In this document: piece by piece, positions 1,261-4,213 of the stretch | Numbering within the stretch: position 1 is the first letter of the stretch | Layout of the letters: the number at the start of each line of letters is the position of its first letter | Origin: a virus | Lineage: Duplodnaviria > Heunggongvirae > Uroviricota > Caudoviricetes | DNA length: 4,350 nucleotides | IMG/VR virus record: IMGVR_UViG_2778261594_000008 | Direction: 5' to 3' (one strand) | Notes under the pieces: model-generated | The model's database searches: none | Seen by the model: the letters and a program-made list of their open reading frames with translations, nothing else | What the model was told of the DNA's origin: nothing | Translations under genes and position numbers: made by a program

Positions 1261-1310
1261 ACAGATACAACGTGAAACAATGTGCAACAACGTGACACAA
1301 TCACGAACAA
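1261..1310. repeat. Five tandem imperfect 10-bp direct repeats, each ending ACAA (consensus about CGTGAMACAA), exactly 10 bp apart
   Basis: Blocks acagatACAA / cgtgaaACAA / tgtgcaACAA / cgtgacACAA / tcacgaACAA. Helical-turn phasing suggests cooperative binding on one DNA face (excisionase, integrase or Rep-like). Confidence 0.7.
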
Positions 1311-1401
1311 GAGGCCAAAAAGAATACAGATTTGTAAGCTACTGATTTTTAATGCTCAGCTGGTTTTTTATACATTAGTGAATTACGCGTTAAAGTGTGC
1401 G

Positions 1402-1438
1402 AAAAAAGGCATAAAACAAGATTTTATGCCTTTGTATT
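1402..1438 (+). terminator. Possible intrinsic terminator or bidirectional hairpin between int and the AlpA-family gene
   Basis: Stem GGCATAAAA (1408-1416), loop CAAGA, stem TTTTATGCC (1422-1430), followed by TTTGTATT and preceded by AAAAAA. The stem is AU-rich (3 GC pairs of 9), so strength is doubtful. Confidence 0.3.
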
Positions 1439-1520
1439 AACATGAATTTAAATGATTTTATCCTGATTATTCCTCTTTCTGTAAACCATGCGACACCAAC
1501 ATTTGCCAACTCTGAATCAT

Positions 1521-1592: not shown

Positions 1593-1781
1593 GTGTTAAG
1601 CACTGATCGGTTTATACGTGAAAAAGAATGCGAAAAGCTAACAGGCCTTAGCCGCTCATGCCGCTACCGCCTGGAAAAGGCCGGACAATTCCCATCACGT
1701 CGTAAACTTGGTGGGCGTTCTGTTGGCTGGTCTTTATCTGAGGTTTTGGCCTGGAAGGATAGCTGCAAGGCAGTTCACTAA
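1593..1781 (+). CDS. alpA: AlpA / Vis-family helix-turn-helix regulator (excisionase-like), 62 aa, GTG start
   Basis: Protein ...EKLTGLSRSCRYRLEKAGQFPSRRKLGGRSVGWSLSEVLAW matches the AlpA family pattern (TG.SR...Y.L...G.FP....LG.RSVGW...E...W). RBS AAGGGGG at 1581-1587, 5 nt before the GTG. Sits directly downstream of a P4-type integrase, as is typical. Confidence 0.8.
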   Translation: MLSTDRFIREKECEKLTGLSRSCRYRLEKAGQFPSRRKLGGRSVGWSLSEVLAWKDSCKAVH

Positions 1782-1920
1782 AAAGACTGGCGGCACACAG
1801 TCGCCACACATCCACTAATACAGAGATATAACTATGAAGATTGAATATGCGCCCGAACGTGGGCGGGGATTCGTTCGCCCTGGTGAAACTGAAAAACAAC
1901 AAAATTGGGGTTTTTCAGGC

Positions 1921-1950
1921 ATAAAAAAAGCGGCCCCGATATGGAGCCGC
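1921..1950 (-). terminator. Canonical Rho-independent terminator for the leftward operon
   Basis: On the minus strand: GCGGCUCC, loop AUAUC, GGGGCCGC (8-bp stem with one G-U), then UUUUUUU. Lies about 75 nt downstream of the P1 stop. The plus-strand side is followed only by CTTTCT, so it is a weak terminator in that direction. Confidence 0.7.
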
Positions 1951-2024
1951 CTTTCTGAACAATTAACCTGCTGCGCCTTATGTGTATGTGATCCCAAACA
2001 TAAGCACGGGAATGATAGCCGCTA

Positions 2025-2228
2025 TCAGGCTGGTGGGCAATTACCTTGCTTGTTGGGGCCGTATTGTGCTGCCATTTTCATCCGTTCAGAACGTGAATAT
2101 TTTTTTAGAAACTCATCAAGGACAAAAGCGCATGGAGCGAATCTTTCTGATTCATGCTCGAGCGCCATATTTTCGTGCTCTCTGTTCGTTTTTTGCGATG
2201 GTGTATTGGTTGATTCTTTGTTGGTCAT
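2025..2228 (-). CDS. Small hypothetical protein P1 (67 aa), paralog of P2; unknown function
   Basis: ORF with ATG start. Shares with P2 the N-terminal MTN and a C-terminal motif R[FL][AV]P..F.L[DE][DE]F..KY.R. Preceded by the conserved 44-nt element and followed by the terminator. The overlapping plus-strand ORFs look like antisense artefacts. Confidence 0.6.
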   Translation of the reverse strand: MTNKESTNTPSQKTNREHENMALEHESERFAPCAFVLDEFLKKYSRSERMKMAAQYGPNKQGNCPPA

Positions 2229-2236
2229 TGTGTGTA

Positions 2237-2280
2237 CCTGTAAAGCAATGCGCCGGAGTTCCTCACGCCACGGCGCTGAT
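2237..2280 (-). repeat. Copy 1 of the conserved 44-nt intercistronic element (plus strand CCTGTAAAGCAATGCGCCGGAGTTCCTCACGCCACGGCGCTGAT)
   Basis: 41/44 identical to copy 2 at 2922-2965. As minus-strand RNA it has a 6-bp stem GCGCCG/CGGCGC with a 15-nt loop, then UUGCUUUACAGG leading into the P1 start. Confidence 0.85.
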
Positions 2281-2285
2281 GTTTT

Positions 2286-2465
2286 TTATTCTTTGGGTTC
2301 AATACCGCGTTGCTGTAATTCTTTTCGGATTATTCGTTTTATCCAAGCTGCTAAAGAGTCATCACCGTCTTGTTGTTGTGCTTTTTCCATCTTTTCCCGT
2401 AAGTCAGGATCTAAACGGAACTGGAAAGGAGGATTACCACGCCTTTCATTTTTGTGTGTTGACAC
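2286..2465 (-). CDS. Putative ribbon-helix-helix protein RHH-2 (59 aa, GTG start), paralog of RHH-1; may be degenerate
   Basis: Found by manual translation; not in the supplied ORF track. Sequence VSTHKNERRGNPPFQFRLDPDLREKMEKAQQQDGDDSLAAWIKRIIRKELQQRGIEPKE shows an RHH pattern (beta strand FQFRLDP, helix A, loop, helix B). Same length as RHH-1 and offset by exactly 685 bp. The only in-frame ATG (2390) would give a 34-aa fragment. The GTG overlaps the -35 of the opposing promoter. Confidence 0.4.
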   Translation of the reverse strand: MSTHKNERRGNPPFQFRLDPDLREKMEKAQQQDGDDSLAAWIKRIIRKELQQRGIEPKE

Positions 2466-2486
2466 GTCAATTACACTCCATATAAT
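2459..2486 (+). promoter_or_regulatory. Consensus sigma70-like promoter TTGACA-N16-TATAAT, rightward
   Basis: TTGACA at 2459-2464 and TATAAT at 2481-2486, both perfect hexamers with a 16-bp spacer. Homologous in position to the weaker rightward promoter of module 2 (TTGACG 3212-3217). Confidence 0.45.
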
Positions 2487-2494
2487 GTGTTTAT

Positions 2495-2506
2495 GTGTAT
2501 ATACAC
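2495..2506. promoter_or_regulatory. Perfect 12-bp palindrome GTGTATATACAC over the predicted transcription start; candidate operator
   Basis: Self-complementary. Flanked by GTGT (2487-2490) and ACACAC (2510-2515), giving an imperfect palindrome of about 30 bp. Half-site GTGT(A/T) resembles the module-2 operators. Confidence 0.4.
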
Positions 2507-2532
2507 ATTACACACAACTAGCACAAAAAACA

Positions 2533-2566
2533 ACGCCCCGCAGTGATGGGAACACATACGGGGCGT
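2533..2566 (+). other. GC-rich leader hairpin (module 1 copy): stem ACGCCCCG/CGGGGCGT, 18-nt loop, followed by TCTAACCAA
   Basis: Direct inverted repeat. Homologous to the 3281-3313 hairpin, including one compensatory pair change (C-G to A-T). No U-tract, so not a terminator. Confidence 0.5.
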
Positions 2567-2685
2567 CTAACCAAACCATTAATTGAGGTAACGATTATGG
2601 CTATAAAAGAGCATAGCTTACTCTTTATACACACACAAACGCCCCGGAAACGGAATAATCCGTTTCATAGTTCGGTTTTGTGCAC

Positions 2686-2913
2686 TCATCCTGGCGGTCG
2701 GTTTTTGCCGGATTTAAGCCGCCGTGGGTATTTATCGACAAAATCTTCAAGGGCAAATTTTTCTGGTGGCACTAAGCGCGGCGCTGGTGGTGGTATTTTT
2801 GTTCTGGTTAGTTCTTCCTCAAGTCTGGCGCAGGCTTCTGACTGCCTTTGCCGGATGATTTCATCATCTTGCGTTTGCGTGTCTTGTATTGGTGATAGTG
2901 TGTTGTTGGTCAT
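2686..2913 (-). CDS. Small hypothetical protein P2 (75 aa), paralog of P1; unknown function
   Basis: ORF with ATG start. AGGG RBS-like motif 8 nt upstream inside the end of the conserved element. Shares N-terminal MTN and the C-terminal F.LEDF.DKY.RR motif with P1. Confidence 0.65.
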   Translation of the reverse strand: MTNNTLSPIQDTQTQDDEIIRQRQSEACARLEEELTRTKIPPPAPRLVPPEKFALEDFVDKYPRRLKSGKNRPPG

Positions 2914-2921
2914 GATACTGC

Positions 2922-2965
2922 CCTGTAAAGCAATGCGCCGTAGTACCTCACACCACGGCGCTGAT
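2922..2965 (-). repeat. Copy 2 of the conserved 44-nt intercistronic element
   Basis: CCTGTAAAGCAATGCGCCGTAGTACCTCACACCACGGCGCTGAT. Differs from copy 1 at three positions, all in the predicted loop. Confidence 0.85.
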
Positions 2966-2970
2966 AGTGA

Positions 2971-3150
2971 TTATTCTGATTCTTTGGCCTTGCGACGCTG
3001 GCGGTATTCAACTTCCCGCTTTAATGCAGTTGTAACAAACTGCCCTGTACTTTCGCCGGGCATTTTTACCGCCTCAACATTGTTCATAACTTCATGTGGA
3101 ACCCTTGCCGCAACTGTTTGTGATTTTGCGTTTACTGCTTTTGTCGCCAT
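2971..3150 (-). CDS. Ribbon-helix-helix (Arc/MetJ/CopG-like) DNA-binding protein RHH-1, 59 aa
   Basis: MATKAVNAKSQTVAARVPHEVMNNVEAVKMPGESTGQFVTTALKREVEYRQRRKAKESE fits strand / helix A / G-x-S-T loop / helix B. ATG at 3150 has RBS GAGGGG 8 nt upstream. The track start at 3159 (GTG) would overlap that RBS, so the ATG is preferred. Confidence 0.7.
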   Translation of the reverse strand: MATKAVNAKSQTVAARVPHEVMNNVEAVKMPGESTGQFVTTALKREVEYRQRRKAKESE

Positions 3151-3198
3151 GTTGAGCACCCCTCATAAAAAACAAATGCAGTATGCAGGAAAAAAAAC

Positions 3199-3253
3199 AA
3201 GTGTTCAACACTTGACGTGTTTAACACCTCGATTTAAATTGGTGTTCAACACC
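3199..3253. promoter_or_regulatory. Divergent promoter region with three 11-bp palindromic operator-like sites GTGTT(C/T)AACAC
   Basis: Sites at 3201-3211, 3217-3227 and 3242-3252. Rightward promoter candidate TTGACG (3212-3217), 17-bp spacer, TAAATT (3235-3240). Leftward candidate TTGAAC (3208-3203 on minus), 17-bp spacer, CATACT (3185-3180). The operators overlap both. Confidence 0.5.
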
Positions 3254-3283
3254 TTATTTAGGCAAGGTGTAGAAACGACGAAA

Positions 3284-3310
3284 CCCCGCACTGTAGGAGC
3301 AGTAACGGGG
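3284..3310 (+). other. Leader hairpin (module 2 copy) in the 5' UTR of ORF A: CCCCG ... CGGGG with inner ACUG/CAGU stem, followed by TCTAACCAA
   Basis: Inverted repeat read directly; homologous to 2533-2566. Confidence 0.5.
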
Positions 3311-3342
3311 CTTCTAACCAACAACGTAAACGAGGAGCCGTT

Positions 3343-3537
3343 ATGGTTGCCGTAAATCATATACCACACCTTGTACACACACAAACGGCCTTTGTGTGGC
3401 GTTTTCTGGCACTGAGTGCCGGAGAATCTCAAATCATCCACGTAACCGCCTGGACGGAACGCGAAGCGCGTAACCTTTGCCCGTCCGGTTGTGTTGCTGT
3501 ATTTGCCGCCCGTATTCGCCAGGGGGTAGGCTTATGA
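3343..3537 (+). CDS. Small protein A (64 aa), possibly Icd-like (host cell division inhibitor-like) family
   Basis: RBS GAGGAG at 3332-3337, 5 nt before the ATG. Stop overlaps the start of ORF B (ATGA). The motif FVWRFLAL...WTEREAR...FAARIRQ recalls Icd-like small proteins of P4-like prophages; this is from memory and needs an HMM search. Confidence 0.6.
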   Translation: MVAVNHIPHLVHTQTAFVWRFLALSAGESQIIHVTAWTEREARNLCPSGCVAVFAARIRQGVGL

Positions 3538-3767
3538 GCCAGGAAATCACACTACAACAGGCAGCAGAACGCGCCCACCAAATCGAAGTTATTTGCGCAC
3601 TGGCAGAGGATTACCCTGGCATGATGACCGACAGCGAATCAGGGGCAATCATCGGCTTACTTAAACGCCTTAGCGGTGAGGTCTGCGTATTCCTGAGCGA
3701 TGAACAGGAAAGAAGAACGCTTATTTCTAACGAAAAAAAATGCGGAGGGGTACACCATGTGCAATAA
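3534..3767 (+). CDS. Small hypothetical protein B (77 aa), alpha-helical
   Basis: ATG at 3534 overlaps the ORF A stop (translational coupling), with AGGGGG upstream. The track's earlier ATG at 3477 lies inside ORF A and is less likely. Confidence 0.6.
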   Translation: MSQEITLQQAAERAHQIEVICALAEDYPGMMTDSESGAIIGLLKRLSGEVCVFLSDEQERRTLISNEKKCGGVHHVQ

Positions 3768-3993
3768 CATCCGTCCGGACGCAGCCGCCGAAGCCATCAT
3801 AACGCTAATGCATGCGCTGATTGATATTTCTGTTATTGCTGACAGGGCGCATAAGCACGCCACCAGTGAAACAGAATATGCTGGGGCTTTCGTTCCTCAT
3901 TCGCTGGCGGTTATGCAACTTAGTGCGGATATGGCACTGAATGAGGCAGGTAAAATTCTTACCGCAGATATTCAGAGGGTACGCCATGAATAA
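3757..3993 (+). CDS. Small hypothetical protein C (78 aa)
   Basis: ATG at 3757 with strong RBS GGAGGGG at 3744-3750, 6 nt upstream. Overlaps the end of ORF B by 11 nt. The track start at 3700 would overlap B by 68 nt. Confidence 0.55.
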   Translation: MCNNIRPDAAAEAIITLMHALIDISVIADRAHKHATSETEYAGAFVPHSLAVMQLSADMALNEAGKILTADIQRVRHE

Positions 3994-4213
3994 AATCCCT
4001 TTTGAAGTATTAATCCACTCTGAAAACGCATTAATTAAAGCGCGCGAAATGAATGCGTTGTTAATTAAATTAATTGAAGTGCCGGAAGGTGGTAAGGAAT
4101 CAGGTGCCTTAATGTTTGCAGCCATTCAGACATTACTATCGCCTGTTATTGATGAACTGGATAAGGCAATGGCAATTCACGAAAATAATAACGCGCCCCA
4201 CACCGGAGAATAA
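3986..4213 (+). CDS. Small hypothetical protein D (75 aa)
   Basis: ATG at 3986 with RBS AGAGGG 6 nt upstream. Overlaps the ORF C stop by 8 nt. Possibly related to B and C (shared ESGA-type motif between helices). Confidence 0.55.
   Translation: MNKIPFEVLIHSENALIKAREMNALLIKLIEVPEGGKESGALMFAAIQTLLSPVIDELDKAMAIHENNNAPHTGE

What the first reader, a model, noticed from the sequence alone, without database searches (positions are those of the whole stretch)
2025..3150. Tandemly duplicated two-gene module (RHH regulator, 44-nt hairpin, small MTN protein) forming one leftward operon
The minus strand carries RHH-1 (2971-3150), element copy 2, P2 (2686-2913), RHH-2 (2286-2465), element copy 1, P1 (2025-2228), then a canonical terminator. 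Gene starts, elements and RHH genes are offset by exactly 685 bp. The protein pairs have diverged strongly but keep length and fold signatures. RHH followed by a small partner resembles toxin-antitoxin or repressor/anti-repressor pairs, yet the partner proteins match nothing I recognise and the two genes are separated by a structured spacer rather than overlapping. This is a candidate uncharacterised accessory or immunity system in a P4-like element.
Basis: partly seen in the sequence, partly recalled or inferred. Interest (0 to 1): 0.8.

Follow-up and report, generated by a model that had tools for sequence, protein, structure and literature searches.

The report
Doubled repressor cassette of a phage satellite
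The region holds two different copies, side by side, of the likely on/off switch of an E. coli phage satellite (a small DNA-binding repressor, an RNA hairpin and a tiny protein), and the whole block lies backwards inside a long reading frame that is kept free of stop codons for reasons not yet known.

Summary
In detail: four minus-strand ORFs, two copies of a conserved hairpin block and an exact 685-bp register. It is not a toxin-antitoxin pair, not one operon, and not in a P4-type element.

The host is a PICI-type satellite (int, alpA, Icd-like gene, DUF927 primase). Each unit is a repressor cassette:
- a ribbon-helix-helix (RHH) protein with three allele-specific operator repeats over a divergent rightward promoter
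- a 27-nt RNA stem-loop supported by covariation
- a small protein, P

RHH alleles reassort freely with P types, and the same alleles circulate as single cassettes. The tandem is therefore a recombinant of two immunity types, found in about 1% of E. coli genomes. The hairpin itself occurs in 31%.

A terminator-like stem-loop and a promoter separate the two units. Hairpin-plus-P units also form arrays of two to four copies elsewhere.

Unexpectedly, the opposite strand is stop-free from alpA to icd. This holds in every locus examined and in five further species, over up to 677 codons. Substitution patterns show that only RHH and P are selected as proteins.

Repressor role, hairpin role and P function are inferred, not shown.

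The parts
1593..1781 (+). alpA (AlpA-family regulator). Its transcription is convergent with the leftward cassettes.
   Evidence: PF05930 Phage_AlpA, E 5e-18. Annotated as an HTH regulator in L001.
1834..2586 (+). Stop-free plus-strand frame A (250 codons). It is antisense to the terminator, P1, hairpin 1, RHH-2 and its promoter region. It ends 10 nt before ATG 2597.
   Evidence: The homologous ORF is annotated as a 247-aa hypothetical protein in EDL933. Its composition is atypical: Cys 7.6%, Ser 12.4%.
1919..1954 (-). Intrinsic terminator ending the cassette A transcript.
   Evidence: Folds at -22.4 kcal/mol, z -3.33, followed by UUUUUUUAU.
2025..2228 (-). P1, a small protein of 67 aa (P family, P1 type).
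   Evidence: phrog_21027, E 2e-12, function unknown. Homologues. Substitution pattern shows protein-level selection.
2250..2276 (-). Hairpin copy 1 (conserved block 2218-2292). It sits between the RHH-2 stop and the P1 ribosome-binding site.
   Evidence: Covariance-model match of 88.3 bits. Covariation.
2286..2465 (-). RHH-2, an Arc/Mnt-like ribbon-helix-helix protein of 59 aa. Putative repressor of cassette A.
   Evidence: phrog_228 Arc-like repressor, E 1.5e-6. Family profile hits Mnt at E 0.035 and Arc at 1.2. HHalign against the RHH-1 family gives 70% probability, E 4e-5.
2459..2510 (+). Rightward promoter of cassette A (TTGACA-16-TATAAT, 2459-2486). It is followed by the palindrome ATGTGTATATACACAT (2493-2508) with outer arms TAATGTG/CACATTA, the putative RHH-2 operator.
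   Evidence: 12/12 promoter match. Palindrome read from the sequence. Operator role is inferred.
2523..2565 (-). Stem-loop A with a U tract. On the minus strand it is terminator-like and lies downstream of P2. On the plus strand it is the leader stem-loop upstream of the icd' start.
   Evidence: Folds at -25.2 kcal/mol, z -3.91, tail UUGUUUUUUGUG. It is repeated at 3296-3321.
2597..3355 (+). Stop-free plus-strand frame B (252 codons from ATG 2597). It uses the start of a truncated icd copy and runs antisense through P2, hairpin 2, RHH-1 and the operators. Its stop lies just after the icd ATG at 3343.
   Evidence: No stops observed, against 0 of 20000 stop-free randomisations.
2686..2913 (-). 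P2, a small protein of 75 aa (P family, P2 type, C-terminal motif KFALEDFVDKYPRRLKSGKNRPPG).
2935..2961 (-). Hairpin copy 2 (conserved block 2903-2977).
   Evidence: 12-pair stem flagged. Folds at -19.3 kcal/mol. Covariance-model match of 91.2 bits.
2971..3150 (-). RHH-1, a YlcI/YnfO-family ribbon-helix-helix protein of 59 aa. Putative repressor of the island's rightward replication operon.
3201..3252 (+). Operator/promoter region of cassette B. GTGTTCAACAC at 3201-3211, GTGTTTAACAC at 3217-3227 and GTGTTCAACAC at 3242-3252 lie around -35 TTGACG (3212-3217) and -10 TAAATT (3235-3240).
   Evidence: Other RHH alleles carry different repeats at the same positions.
3281..3313 (+). Stem-loop B in the icd leader, the counterpart of 2534-2565.
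3343..3537 (+). Icd-like gene, the first recognisable gene of the rightward operon.
   Evidence: NF033153, E 3e-18.

Best explanation
The block is two tandem, non-identical copies of the repressor (immunity) cassette of a PICI-type phage satellite of E. coli.

What each cassette contains:
- A gene for a 59-aa ribbon-helix-helix protein.
- A promoter region directly upstream with three copies of a 10-11-nt repeat specific to that RHH allele. One repeat lies at the leftward promoter. Two bracket the -35 and -10 of a divergent rightward promoter, which in cassette B drives icd and the primase operon.
- A conserved 27-nt stem-loop, formed in the RHH-sense RNA, just past the RHH stop codon.
- A small basic protein, P.

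Inferred mechanism:
- RHH dimers occupy the repeats. They silence the rightward promoter and limit their own synthesis, which keeps the island quiescent and sets its immunity type.
- The stem-loop acts as a leaky terminator or RNA-stability element. It yields much RHH and little P.
- P is an accessory protein made in the quiescent state. Its function is unknown.

How the tandem arose and what it does:
- It arose by recombination between two satellites of different immunity type.
- Cassette A keeps its own promoter, leader stem-loop and the first 14 codons of icd.
- The two cassettes are separate transcription units.

The opposite strand: the whole leftward block is antisense to plus-strand frames that are kept free of stop codons and link alpA to icd. 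The most likely reason is that AlpA-dependent read-through transcripts must be translated across the repressor cassette to reach the replication genes.
For: Shown here:
- RHH fold and family.
- Position: the RHH gene always lies between alpA and the primase operon, divergent from that operon. This holds in Escherichia, Klebsiella, Proteus, Pectobacterium and Xenorhabdus.
- Operators: allele-specific triple repeats sit at fixed positions around a conserved TTGAC(G/A)-17-TAnnnT promoter. They change together with residues 10-20 of RHH.
- Allele diversity: RHH alleles are very diverse, whereas P types are few and reassort freely.
- Hairpin: covariation with many G-U pairs points to an RNA of the RHH-sense strand.
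- Terminator position: in other genera an ordinary terminator occupies the hairpin's place.
- Protein-level selection: RHH shows identity 0.65 with mean BLOSUM62 +0.18 at substituted sites, and nucleotide differences of 322/181/565 by codon position. P shows 0.70, +0.04 and 1033/859/2034.
- Separate units: terminator-like stem-loop and consensus promoter between P2 and RHH-2.
- Separate circulation: the same alleles occur as single cassettes. The tandem junction is present in 56 of 5426 genomes, against 1682 with the hairpin.
- Stop-free antisense frame: present in all 59 unique regions and in five further species. 0 of 20000 randomisations are stop-free.

From the literature:
- A global repressor of Gram-negative PICIs is 'unclear'.
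- AlpA drives expression of the ORF after alpA and island replication (PMC6092414).
Against: - No experiment shows binding, repression or immunity.
- The repeat/RHH co-variation is qualitative, and the two are physically linked, so hitch-hiking cannot be excluded.
- The hairpin's U tract is poor (AUUGCUUUAC), so terminator activity is uncertain.
- Hairpin-plus-P units recur without RHH in arrays. The hairpin may therefore belong to P rather than to RHH.
- P has no recognisable fold (pLDDT 66.8) and no family.
- The reason for the stop-free frame is conjecture. GC skew gives no sign of a specially Rho-prone plus-strand RNA.
- Independence of the E. coli promoter regions is limited: they fall into 3 single-linkage clusters.
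Confidence: 0.6

Rival explanations
1. Type II toxin-antitoxin pair or other two-protein defence system. RHH is the antitoxin and autorepressor, and P is a small toxin or effector neutralised by its own RHH.
For: - Gene order and sizes fit.
- There is a weak VapB-like NCBIfam hit for RHH-2 at E 0.012.
Against: - The same P protein sits behind at least 12 unrelated RHH alleles of two types, so there is no cognate co-evolution.
- RHH homologues in four other genera have no P and end in a terminator.
- P occurs in arrays and behind other P genes without RHH.
- P hits no toxin or PADLOC model.
- The genes are separated by a structured 57-nt spacer rather than overlapping.
- The operators control a divergent operon.
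Confidence: 0.06
2. The long plus-strand ORFs are the real genes (an extended Icd-like protein). The minus-strand RHH and P ORFs are shadow ORFs.
For: - The plus-strand frame is stop-free in every locus, often continuous with the Icd C-terminus.
- It is annotated as a protein in some genomes.
- Third codon positions of the two strands coincide, the arrangement in which shadow ORFs arise.
Against: - Substitutions are conservative in the RHH and P frames (+0.18, +0.04) and radical in the open antisense frame (-0.94, -0.87).
- The RHH model has an RHH fold.
- Start codons and N-termini of RHH are conserved across genera.
- The plus-strand product is Cys- and Ser-rich.
- AT skew flips to the minus strand across 1951-3150.
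Confidence: 0.03
3. The hairpin block is chiefly a recombination junction of a mobile 'hairpin plus P' cassette. Its conservation promotes unequal crossing-over and so creates the tandems and arrays. It would not be a regulatory RNA.
For: - Arrays of 2-4 hairpin units with P paralogues.
- Free reassortment exactly at the block.
- The block is 81-100% conserved between otherwise dissimilar flanks.
Against: - Compensatory changes and strand-specific G-U pairs indicate selection on an RNA fold, which recombination homology does not require.
- The distance to the P ribosome-binding site is fixed.
- The two roles are not exclusive.
Confidence: 0.15
4. P is an RNA-binding regulator that recognises the hairpin through an arginine-rich segment, as lambda N recognises boxB. 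It would autoregulate its own translation or modify termination.
For: - P1-type proteins carry ARKRRRRK near the N-terminus.
- All P proteins have a basic tail.
- The hairpin always precedes P by 13 nt before the ribosome-binding site.
- The resemblance to N/boxB comes from my own knowledge and was not tested.
Against: - P2-type proteins lack the arginine-rich segment yet follow the same hairpin.
- Hairpin variants do not track P types.
- The hairpin also occurs without any P downstream, in the L015 group.
Confidence: 0.1
5. The tandem arose by local duplication followed by divergence of both copies in place.
For: - Exact 685-bp register and equal RHH length.
- The two P proteins and the two RHH proteins are remote homologues.
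Against: - Identical or nearly identical RHH-2, RHH-1, P1 and P2 alleles exist as single cassettes in other islands.
- The register follows from the fixed 59-codon RHH plus the 57-nt spacer, which all cassettes share.
- The same icd'-P2 junction is shared with different left-hand cassettes in L047 and L076.
Confidence: 0.08

Closest known systems
immI region of phage P22 (Mnt, Arc-Ant, sar antisense RNA)
   Same: - Small RHH repressors act on overlapping divergent promoters.
- An RHH gene is followed in the same transcript by a second gene.
- There is opposing transcription across the unit.
- The RHH-2 family profile finds Mnt and Arc as best solved relatives.
   Different: - No Ant homologue is present. 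P is 57-92 aa and belongs to no known family.
- The spacer carries a conserved stem-loop.
- No sar-like promoter was found.
- The repressed operon is replication, not an antirepressor.
- The P22 details come from my own knowledge.
Master repressors of Gram-positive PICIs (Stl/Rpr of SaPIs)
   Same: - The repressor gene is divergent from the replication operon of a satellite.
- Allelic diversity is high.
- The presumed role is keeping the island silent (background in PMC6092414).
   Different: - RHH fold and only 59-101 aa.
- It lies between alpA and the replication genes, and convergent with alpA.
- Induction in these islands runs through AlpA.
- No phage-protein antirepressor is known.
YlcI/YnfO family (NCBIfam NF041551) of prophage proteins
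   Same: RHH-1 is a clear member at 60.2 bits against a cut-off of 30.
   Different: - The family carries no assigned function. A 2026 survey lists it only as 'prophage-associated protein' in PICIs (PMC13612085).
- RHH-2 falls below the cut-off at 20 bits.
Type II toxin-antitoxin operons with RHH antitoxins (ParD, CopG/RelB-like, TacA)
   Same: A small RHH gene comes first and a small second gene follows. RHH fold is shared.
   Different: - No cognate pairing.
- The partner is not a known toxin.
- The genes are not overlapping.
- The operators govern a divergent operon.
lambda cI-rexA-rexB operon (repressor co-transcribed with accessory genes)
   Same: Logic only: an accessory gene is expressed with the repressor in the quiescent state. 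This rests on my own knowledge and is an inference.
   Different: Unrelated proteins. No evidence that P excludes phages.
c4-icd-ant of phage P1 and the CI RNA immunity region of P4
   Same: An Icd-like gene is preceded by a conserved leader stem-loop.
   Different: - No Rfam match to C4 or any other family.
- On the minus strand the stem-loop looks like a terminator.
- No target complementarity was examined.

Membership tests
YlcI/YnfO family (NF041551) | Score at or above the curated cut-off of 30 bits | tested here: met
   RHH-1 scores 60.2 bits, E 1.4e-16. PGAP names the L001 orthologue the same way.
YlcI/YnfO family (NF041551) | Same criterion applied to RHH-2 | tested here: not met
   RHH-2 scores 20 bits, below 30. 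It is related only at profile level (HHalign 70%, E 4e-5).
Ribbon-helix-helix DNA-binding superfamily | N-terminal strand followed by two helices, with structural similarity to solved RHH proteins | tested here: met
Ribbon-helix-helix DNA-binding superfamily | Same criterion applied to RHH-2 | tested here: inconclusive
   phrog_228 Arc-like, E 1.5e-6. Profile against PDB gives Mnt 0.035, Arc 1.2, AmrZ 1.3. No model was made.
Ribbon-helix-helix DNA-binding superfamily | Binds repeated operator half-sites as dimers | not testable with these tools
   Allele-specific triple repeats are present. Binding has not been shown.
Type II toxin-antitoxin system | The partner belongs to a toxin family | tested here: not met
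   P1 and P2 have no significant Pfam, NCBIfam or PADLOC hit. Only phrog_21027 (unknown function) matches P1.
Type II toxin-antitoxin system | Antitoxin and toxin are inherited and evolve as a cognate pair | tested here: not met
   One P protein pairs with at least 12 RHH alleles. RHH occurs without P in other genera. P occurs without RHH.
Type II toxin-antitoxin system | The partner is toxic and is neutralised by the antitoxin | not testable with these tools
   Needs expression experiments.
P4-like satellite | Carries the P4 genes sid, delta, psu and an alpha-type primase | tested here: not met
   The full island in L001 has no gene annotated as sid, delta or psu. It has a DUF927 primase, SSB, major capsid, decoration and TerS genes. 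This rests on annotation only.
PICI-type satellite (Gram-negative) | int, then alpA in the same direction, then a primase/replication module, in an island of about 10-15 kb without lysis or tail genes | tested here: met
   L001 holds a roughly 12-kb island inserted in tqsA with that order. The same layout is seen in Nissle, EDL933 and others and matches the description in PMC6092414.
PICI-type satellite (Gram-negative) | Induced and packaged by a helper phage | not testable with these tools
   No experiment.
Intrinsic (Rho-independent) terminator, for the 27-nt hairpin | G+C-rich stem followed by a U tract | tested here: inconclusive
   The stem is strong (-19.3 kcal/mol), and copy 2 was flagged by the consensus scan. 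The tail AUUGCUUUAC or AUUGCUAUGC has only 4-5 U. Other genera have a full terminator at this place.
Rfam RNA families | Match to any curated covariance model | tested here: not met
   No hit on either hairpin or on the leader stem-loops at E up to 1.

The most novel reading that the evidence does not exclude
The satellite's repressor cassette is deliberately embedded, antisense, in a translated reading frame that selection keeps free of stop codons but does not constrain in sequence. This frame bridges alpA and the replication operon.

On induction, AlpA-dependent transcription coupled to translation would run head-on through the repressor gene. It would both silence the repressor and deliver RNA polymerase to icd and the primase gene.

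The RHH protein would be the missing master repressor of Gram-negative PICIs. The doubled cassette would give the island two immunity specificities or a two-step lock.
Probability: 0.3. Interest if true: 0.85.

Novelty: new variant of a known kind. Interest (0 to 1): 0.66.

Why it matters
- Missing repressor. Gram-negative PICIs are common in E. coli, and the hairpin alone marks islands in 31% of complete genomes. Yet the published view is that a global repressor is 'unclear' and that only the activator AlpA is known (PMC6092414). An RHH protein with allele-specific operators over the replication promoter is a concrete, directly testable candidate. It would also define immunity groups among satellites.
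- Stop-free frame. Up to 677 codons lie antisense to real genes and promoters, conserved in five further species but not selected as a protein. This is an unusual signal. If translation is needed to carry transcription across a convergent repressor cassette, it would be a new design principle for genetic switches. It is also a warning for annotation, because these frames are currently called 'hypothetical' or long 'Icd-like' proteins while P is mostly not called at all.
- P family. P and its hairpin-linked arrays are an uncharacterised gene family expressed from quiescent satellites.

Tried and rejected
- Rfam scan of the whole window at E up to 1. Only two chance-level hits outside the feature (BSnc120 at 27.9 bits against 114; ST7-OT3_4). 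Nothing on the hairpins or leader stem-loops.
- PADLOC. Nothing except a sub-threshold Cas8g fragment hit for P1.
- Genome-contig scan with the RHH alignment.
- Codon-usage scoring of the six frames. Too noisy on 60-75 codons to decide the strand.
- Synonymous permutation alone keeps the plus frame open in 19% of trials. The coding parts therefore do not carry the significance. The non-coding parts do.
- Clustering of promoter regions to count independent alleles. Single linkage chained them into 3 clusters. Independence among E. coli loci cannot be claimed, so I relied on other genera instead.
- The idea that the plus-strand RNA is unusually C-rich and G-poor, and so Rho-prone. GC skew does not support it.
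- The AlphaFold model of P is of low confidence and was not used for fold search.
- Considered and rejected by inspection only: integron attC sites, REP elements, a C4/CI-type antisense RNA for the leader stem-loop, and stop-codon read-through fusing RHH to P. The two genes are in frame, 19 codons apart, but RHH ends in TAA.
Full report
**1. What is in the window**

The window is the left end of a chromosomal island. On the plus strand it holds a tyrosine integrase (1-1218) and alpA (1593-1781; PF05930, E 5e-18).

On the minus strand it holds four small ORFs: P1 2025-2228, RHH-2 2286-2465, P2 2686-2913 and RHH-1 2971-3150.

The plus strand then resumes with an Icd-like gene (3343-3537; NF033153, E 3e-18) and a chain of small overlapping ORFs.

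A 96% identical copy in E. coli RM10466 shows the whole element. It is about 12 kb, inserted in tqsA, and continues with DUF4222, a DUF927 primase, SSB, major capsid, decoration and small terminase genes. No gene is annotated as sid, delta or psu. This is the layout described for Gram-negative phage-inducible chromosomal islands (PICIs; PMC6092414), not that of P4.

**2. Check of the observation**

- The repeat is real: 2218-2292 and 2903-2977 are 81% identical with a spacing of 685. All gene boundaries share that register.
- The stem-loops are at 2250-2276 and 2935-2961. As minus-strand RNA they fold at -13.7 and -19.3 kcal/mol. As plus-strand RNA they fold at -16.2 (in a different overall structure) and -13.6.
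- The terminator after P1 is confirmed.
- Outside the repeat the two modules are barely alignable. RHH-1 and RHH-2 give no BLASTP hit. P1 and P2 share 25% identity, an MTN start and a motif F-A/V-L-E/D-x-F-x-x-K-Y.
It is a plus-strand stem-loop followed by the first 14 codons of icd, present at about 2523-2640 and again at about 3281-3385. Cassette A therefore carries its own copy of the divergent promoter region and a truncated icd start.

**3. How common it is**

- The 51-nt hairpin segment occurs at 2755 places in 1682 of 5426 complete E. coli genomes, almost always at the 3' end of a YlcI/YnfO gene.
- One cassette per island is the rule, as in Nissle 1917, EDL933 and AH21F008.
- The particular junction between the two cassettes of this window is present in full in 56 genomes. 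The whole window is covered at 80% or more in 45 genomes.
- A few other islands hold other tandem combinations: L047, L076, L124, L127 and L134.

**4. The RHH proteins**

RHH-1:
- It is a clear YlcI/YnfO member at 60.2 bits against a cut-off of 30.
- An AlphaFold model built on 34 homologues (pLDDT 85.7) has an extended N-terminus and two helices.

RHH-2:
- It is below the family cut-off.
- It hits the PHROG 'Arc-like repressor'.
- Its family profile finds Mnt and Arc as best solved relatives.
- It aligns to the RHH-1 family by HHalign at 70% probability, E 4e-5.

Homologues of RHH-1 occur in Salmonella, Klebsiella, Serratia, Pectobacterium, Proteus, Rouxiella and Xenorhabdus. In the four genera inspected (Klebsiella, Pectobacterium, Proteus and Xenorhabdus), the gene sits between alpA and the primase operon. 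It is divergent from the primase operon and convergent with alpA.

**5. Operators**

In window orientation, the region between RHH and icd has a conserved architecture. It consists of a -35 TTGAC(G/A) or TTGAAG, a 17-nt spacer and a -10 TAnnnT.

Three copies of a 10-11-nt repeat sit at fixed positions:
- one next to CAGTATACAC, which is TATACT on the RHH strand and the likely -10 of the leftward promoter
- one in the spacer of the rightward promoter
- one just after its -10

The repeat differs from allele to allele:

| Locus or allele | Repeat |
|---|---|
| This window | GTGTTCAACAC (3201-3211, 3217-3227, 3242-3252) |
| L001 | GGTGGCTGACA |
| L010 | TGTGCGCACA |
| L015 | GGTGTGTTTCA |
| L046 | CTGGAATCCAG |
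| L068 | GGTGCGATTCA |
| L069 | GGTGTAAGACA |

The RHH differences are concentrated in residues 10-20. By established knowledge of the RHH fold, this is the strand that reads the DNA.

Cassette A has a perfect TTGACA-16-TATAAT promoter (2459-2486). It is followed by the palindrome ATGTGTATATACACAT.

I infer that RHH is the repressor of the rightward promoter and of itself, and that alleles define immunity types. This has not been shown. It fits the published statement that a global repressor of these islands is 'unclear'. A 2026 survey lists YlcI/YnfO only as a 'prophage-associated protein'.

**6. Not a toxin-antitoxin pair and not a local duplication**

- The same P protein (MTDKELTKTLSPARKRRRRKIEHESERFAPCAFALEQFLKEYREKRSLQVWQRTEPD) follows at least twelve RHH alleles. 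These include short and long YlcI types and the Arc type.
- P2-type proteins follow at least five alleles.
- In other genera RHH is followed by an ordinary terminator and no P.
- P genes occur behind other P genes, and in a chromosomal locus between an ABC-transporter operon and unrelated DNA.
- None of the libraries places P in a toxin or defence family.
- The very alleles of this window occur singly elsewhere: RHH-2 in L073 and L091, RHH-1 in L004 and L009, P1 in L034 and L050, P2 in L046 and L118.

The tandem is therefore a recombinant of two cassettes. The 685-bp register simply reflects the fixed 59-codon RHH plus the 57-nt spacer.

**7. The hairpin**

- Among E. coli copies the lower six pairs never vary.
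- More distant copies were found through P homologues in metagenomes. With these, 43 distinct sequences show compensatory changes at 7 of 12 pairs, such as G-C to U-A at the two outer pairs, C-G to U-A at pair 5 and U-A to C-G at pair 10.
- There are 28 doubly changed cells against 8.6 in shuffles (0 of 500) and 2-5 in slid controls. One caveat applies: the alignment was fitted to the model.
- Three pairs are predominantly G-U in the RHH-sense strand. They would be mismatches on the other strand, so the fold belongs to the RHH/P messenger.
- The hairpin lies 4-9 nt after the RHH stop and 13 nt before the AGG of the P ribosome-binding site. It is followed by AUUGCU(U/A)U(A/G)C.
- Other genera have a canonical terminator at this spot, and here the U tract is weak. 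The best reading is therefore a leaky terminator or a 3'/5' stabiliser that sets the RHH:P ratio (inferred).
- The hairpin also precedes each gene in arrays of P paralogues: four copies in L132, three in L134 and L135, two in L137 and L159. It may equally be a 5' element of P and a hot spot for unequal recombination.

**8. P**

- P proteins are 55-92 aa with a variable N-terminal part and a conserved end, (K/R)FAL(E/D)xF(V/L)xKYPRRLKSGKNRPPG, or its P1-type counterpart.
- A profile search of 1.84 billion representatives finds only 21.
- The AlphaFold model is helical but weak (pLDDT 66.8).
- P is a selected protein. Across 21 distinct C-terminal segments identity is 0.70. Substituted sites score +0.04 in BLOSUM62, against -0.83 to -0.98 in the antisense frames. 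Nucleotide differences by codon position are 1033/859/2034.
- Its function is unknown. Because it is transcribed with the repressor, I guess an accessory role in the quiescent state.

**9. Two units, not one operon**

Between P2 and RHH-2 lie three features:
- a small hairpin at 2647-2666
- a -25.2 kcal/mol stem-loop followed on the minus strand by UUGUUUUUUGUG (2523-2565)
- the cassette A promoter and operator region

**10. The stop-free opposite strand**

The pattern:
- The plus strand carries ORFs 1834-2586 and 2543-3355.
- The first ends 10 nt before ATG 2597. That ATG has a GAGG ribosome-binding site, is the start of the truncated icd, and lies in the frame of the second ORF.
- The second ORF stops just after the icd ATG at 3343.
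- The plus strand can therefore be read from 52 nt after alpA to the primase operon as a chain of abutting ORFs.
- In all 59 distinct 934-nt regions centred on the hairpin, one antisense frame is open for at least 181 codons, and mostly for the whole region. The other two frames are open for 6-172 codons.
- In most islands the frame runs on into the C-terminus of Icd. Lengths reach 654 codons in L076 and 677 in L134.
- The same holds in E. ruysiae (336 aa), Xenorhabdus (208), Proteus (302), Pectobacterium (332) and Klebsiella (292), where the DNA is much diverged.

Significance:
- Randomising the window gives no stop-free case in 20000 trials when the non-coding segments are dinucleotide-shuffled (mean 13 stops).
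- Synonymous permutation of the four genes alone leaves the frames open in 19% of trials.
- The signal therefore lies in the promoter, spacer and terminator segments.

The frame is not selected as a protein:
- Over RHH its substitutions are radical (-0.94) while those of RHH are conservative (+0.18).
- Its product is rich in Cys and Ser.
- AT skew marks the minus strand as the coding strand across 1951-3150.
- Third codon positions of the two strands coincide. This also forces RHH and P into one frame, 19 codons apart.

Interpretation:
- AlpA is needed for expression of the ORF after alpA and for replication.
- A protein of the same name in Pseudomonas is a processive antiterminator (PMC7969949). 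Homology to the PICI AlpA was not checked.
- My conjecture is that read-through transcripts from alpA must be translated across the cassette to reach the replication genes, and that they oppose repressor expression while doing so.
- This is unproven, and other reasons are possible.

**11. Verdict**

- Its interpretation is right in spirit (a regulatory or immunity module) and wrong in detail (operon, toxin-antitoxin, P4, duplication with divergence).
- The cassette is a new variant of a familiar kind, a repressor/immunity region, with three unusual features: the hairpin-linked P family, the heteroallelic doubling, and the stop-free antisense frame.

Noticed in passing
window 1834-3355 (+); also L076, L134, L125, L179-L182: Plus-strand frames with no stop codon run antisense through real genes, promoters and terminators from alpA to icd. 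They reach up to 677 codons and are conserved in five further species, but they are not selected as protein. Genome annotations call them 'hypothetical protein' or long 'Icd-like protein', while P is usually not annotated.
   Followed up: yes
window 2523-2565 and 3281-3313: A conserved G+C-rich stem-loop lies upstream of each icd start. On the plus strand it is a leader structure. On the minus strand it looks like an intrinsic terminator (U tract in copy A, weaker in copy B). Loop sequences vary between islands while the CCCCG/CGGGG stem is kept. There is no Rfam match.
   Followed up: partly
window 3378-3398 (+): A terminator-like hairpin, CACACAAACGGCCTTTGTGTG followed by GCGTTTTCTG, lies inside the first codons of the Icd-like gene. 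The shared ACACACACAAAC tract is also the point where the truncated icd copy of cassette A breaks off.
   Followed up: no
window 1263-1303 and 1513-1533: Three or more copies of a 21-nt repeat (ACAACGTGACACAATCA-like) lie between int and alpA (family D2). They may be binding sites for AlpA or integrase arm-type sites.
   Followed up: no
window 1369-1447 (+): A weak Rfam match to Brucella sRNA BSnc120 (27.9 bits against a gathering score of 114). It is an A/T-rich stretch ending in the hairpin GGCATAAAA...TTTTATGCC after int. Most likely chance plus a terminator.
   Followed up: no
L132 525-1434; L134 2202-3130; L135; L159: Arrays of two to four hairpin copies, about 240-330 nt apart, each followed by a different P-family paralogue.
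   Followed up: partly
L137 2440-3211: A hairpin/P array with no RHH, alpA or integrase within the 5-kb locus. It lies next to an ABC-transporter operon, and there the antisense frame is not long (about 100 codons). It may be a remnant or a domesticated copy.
   Followed up: partly
L127 2331-4148 (-): One 605-codon open frame contains, in order, junk antisense to two cassettes, a stretch that matches Pfam Phage_ASH, and an Icd-like C-terminus. Real domains and non-selected sequence share one frame.
   Followed up: no
L001 7907-8812 and 20930-21073: The island splits the AI-2 transporter gene tqsA. The two halves are annotated as pseudogenes on either side. Other copies sit at tRNA-Pro/yejM, roxA and cspD.
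   Followed up: no
window 3534-4213 (+): A chain of small ORFs (3534-3767, 3757-3993, 3986-4213) has overlapping stops and starts. They match PHROGs of unknown function (phrog_1478, 5146, 2196).
   Followed up: no
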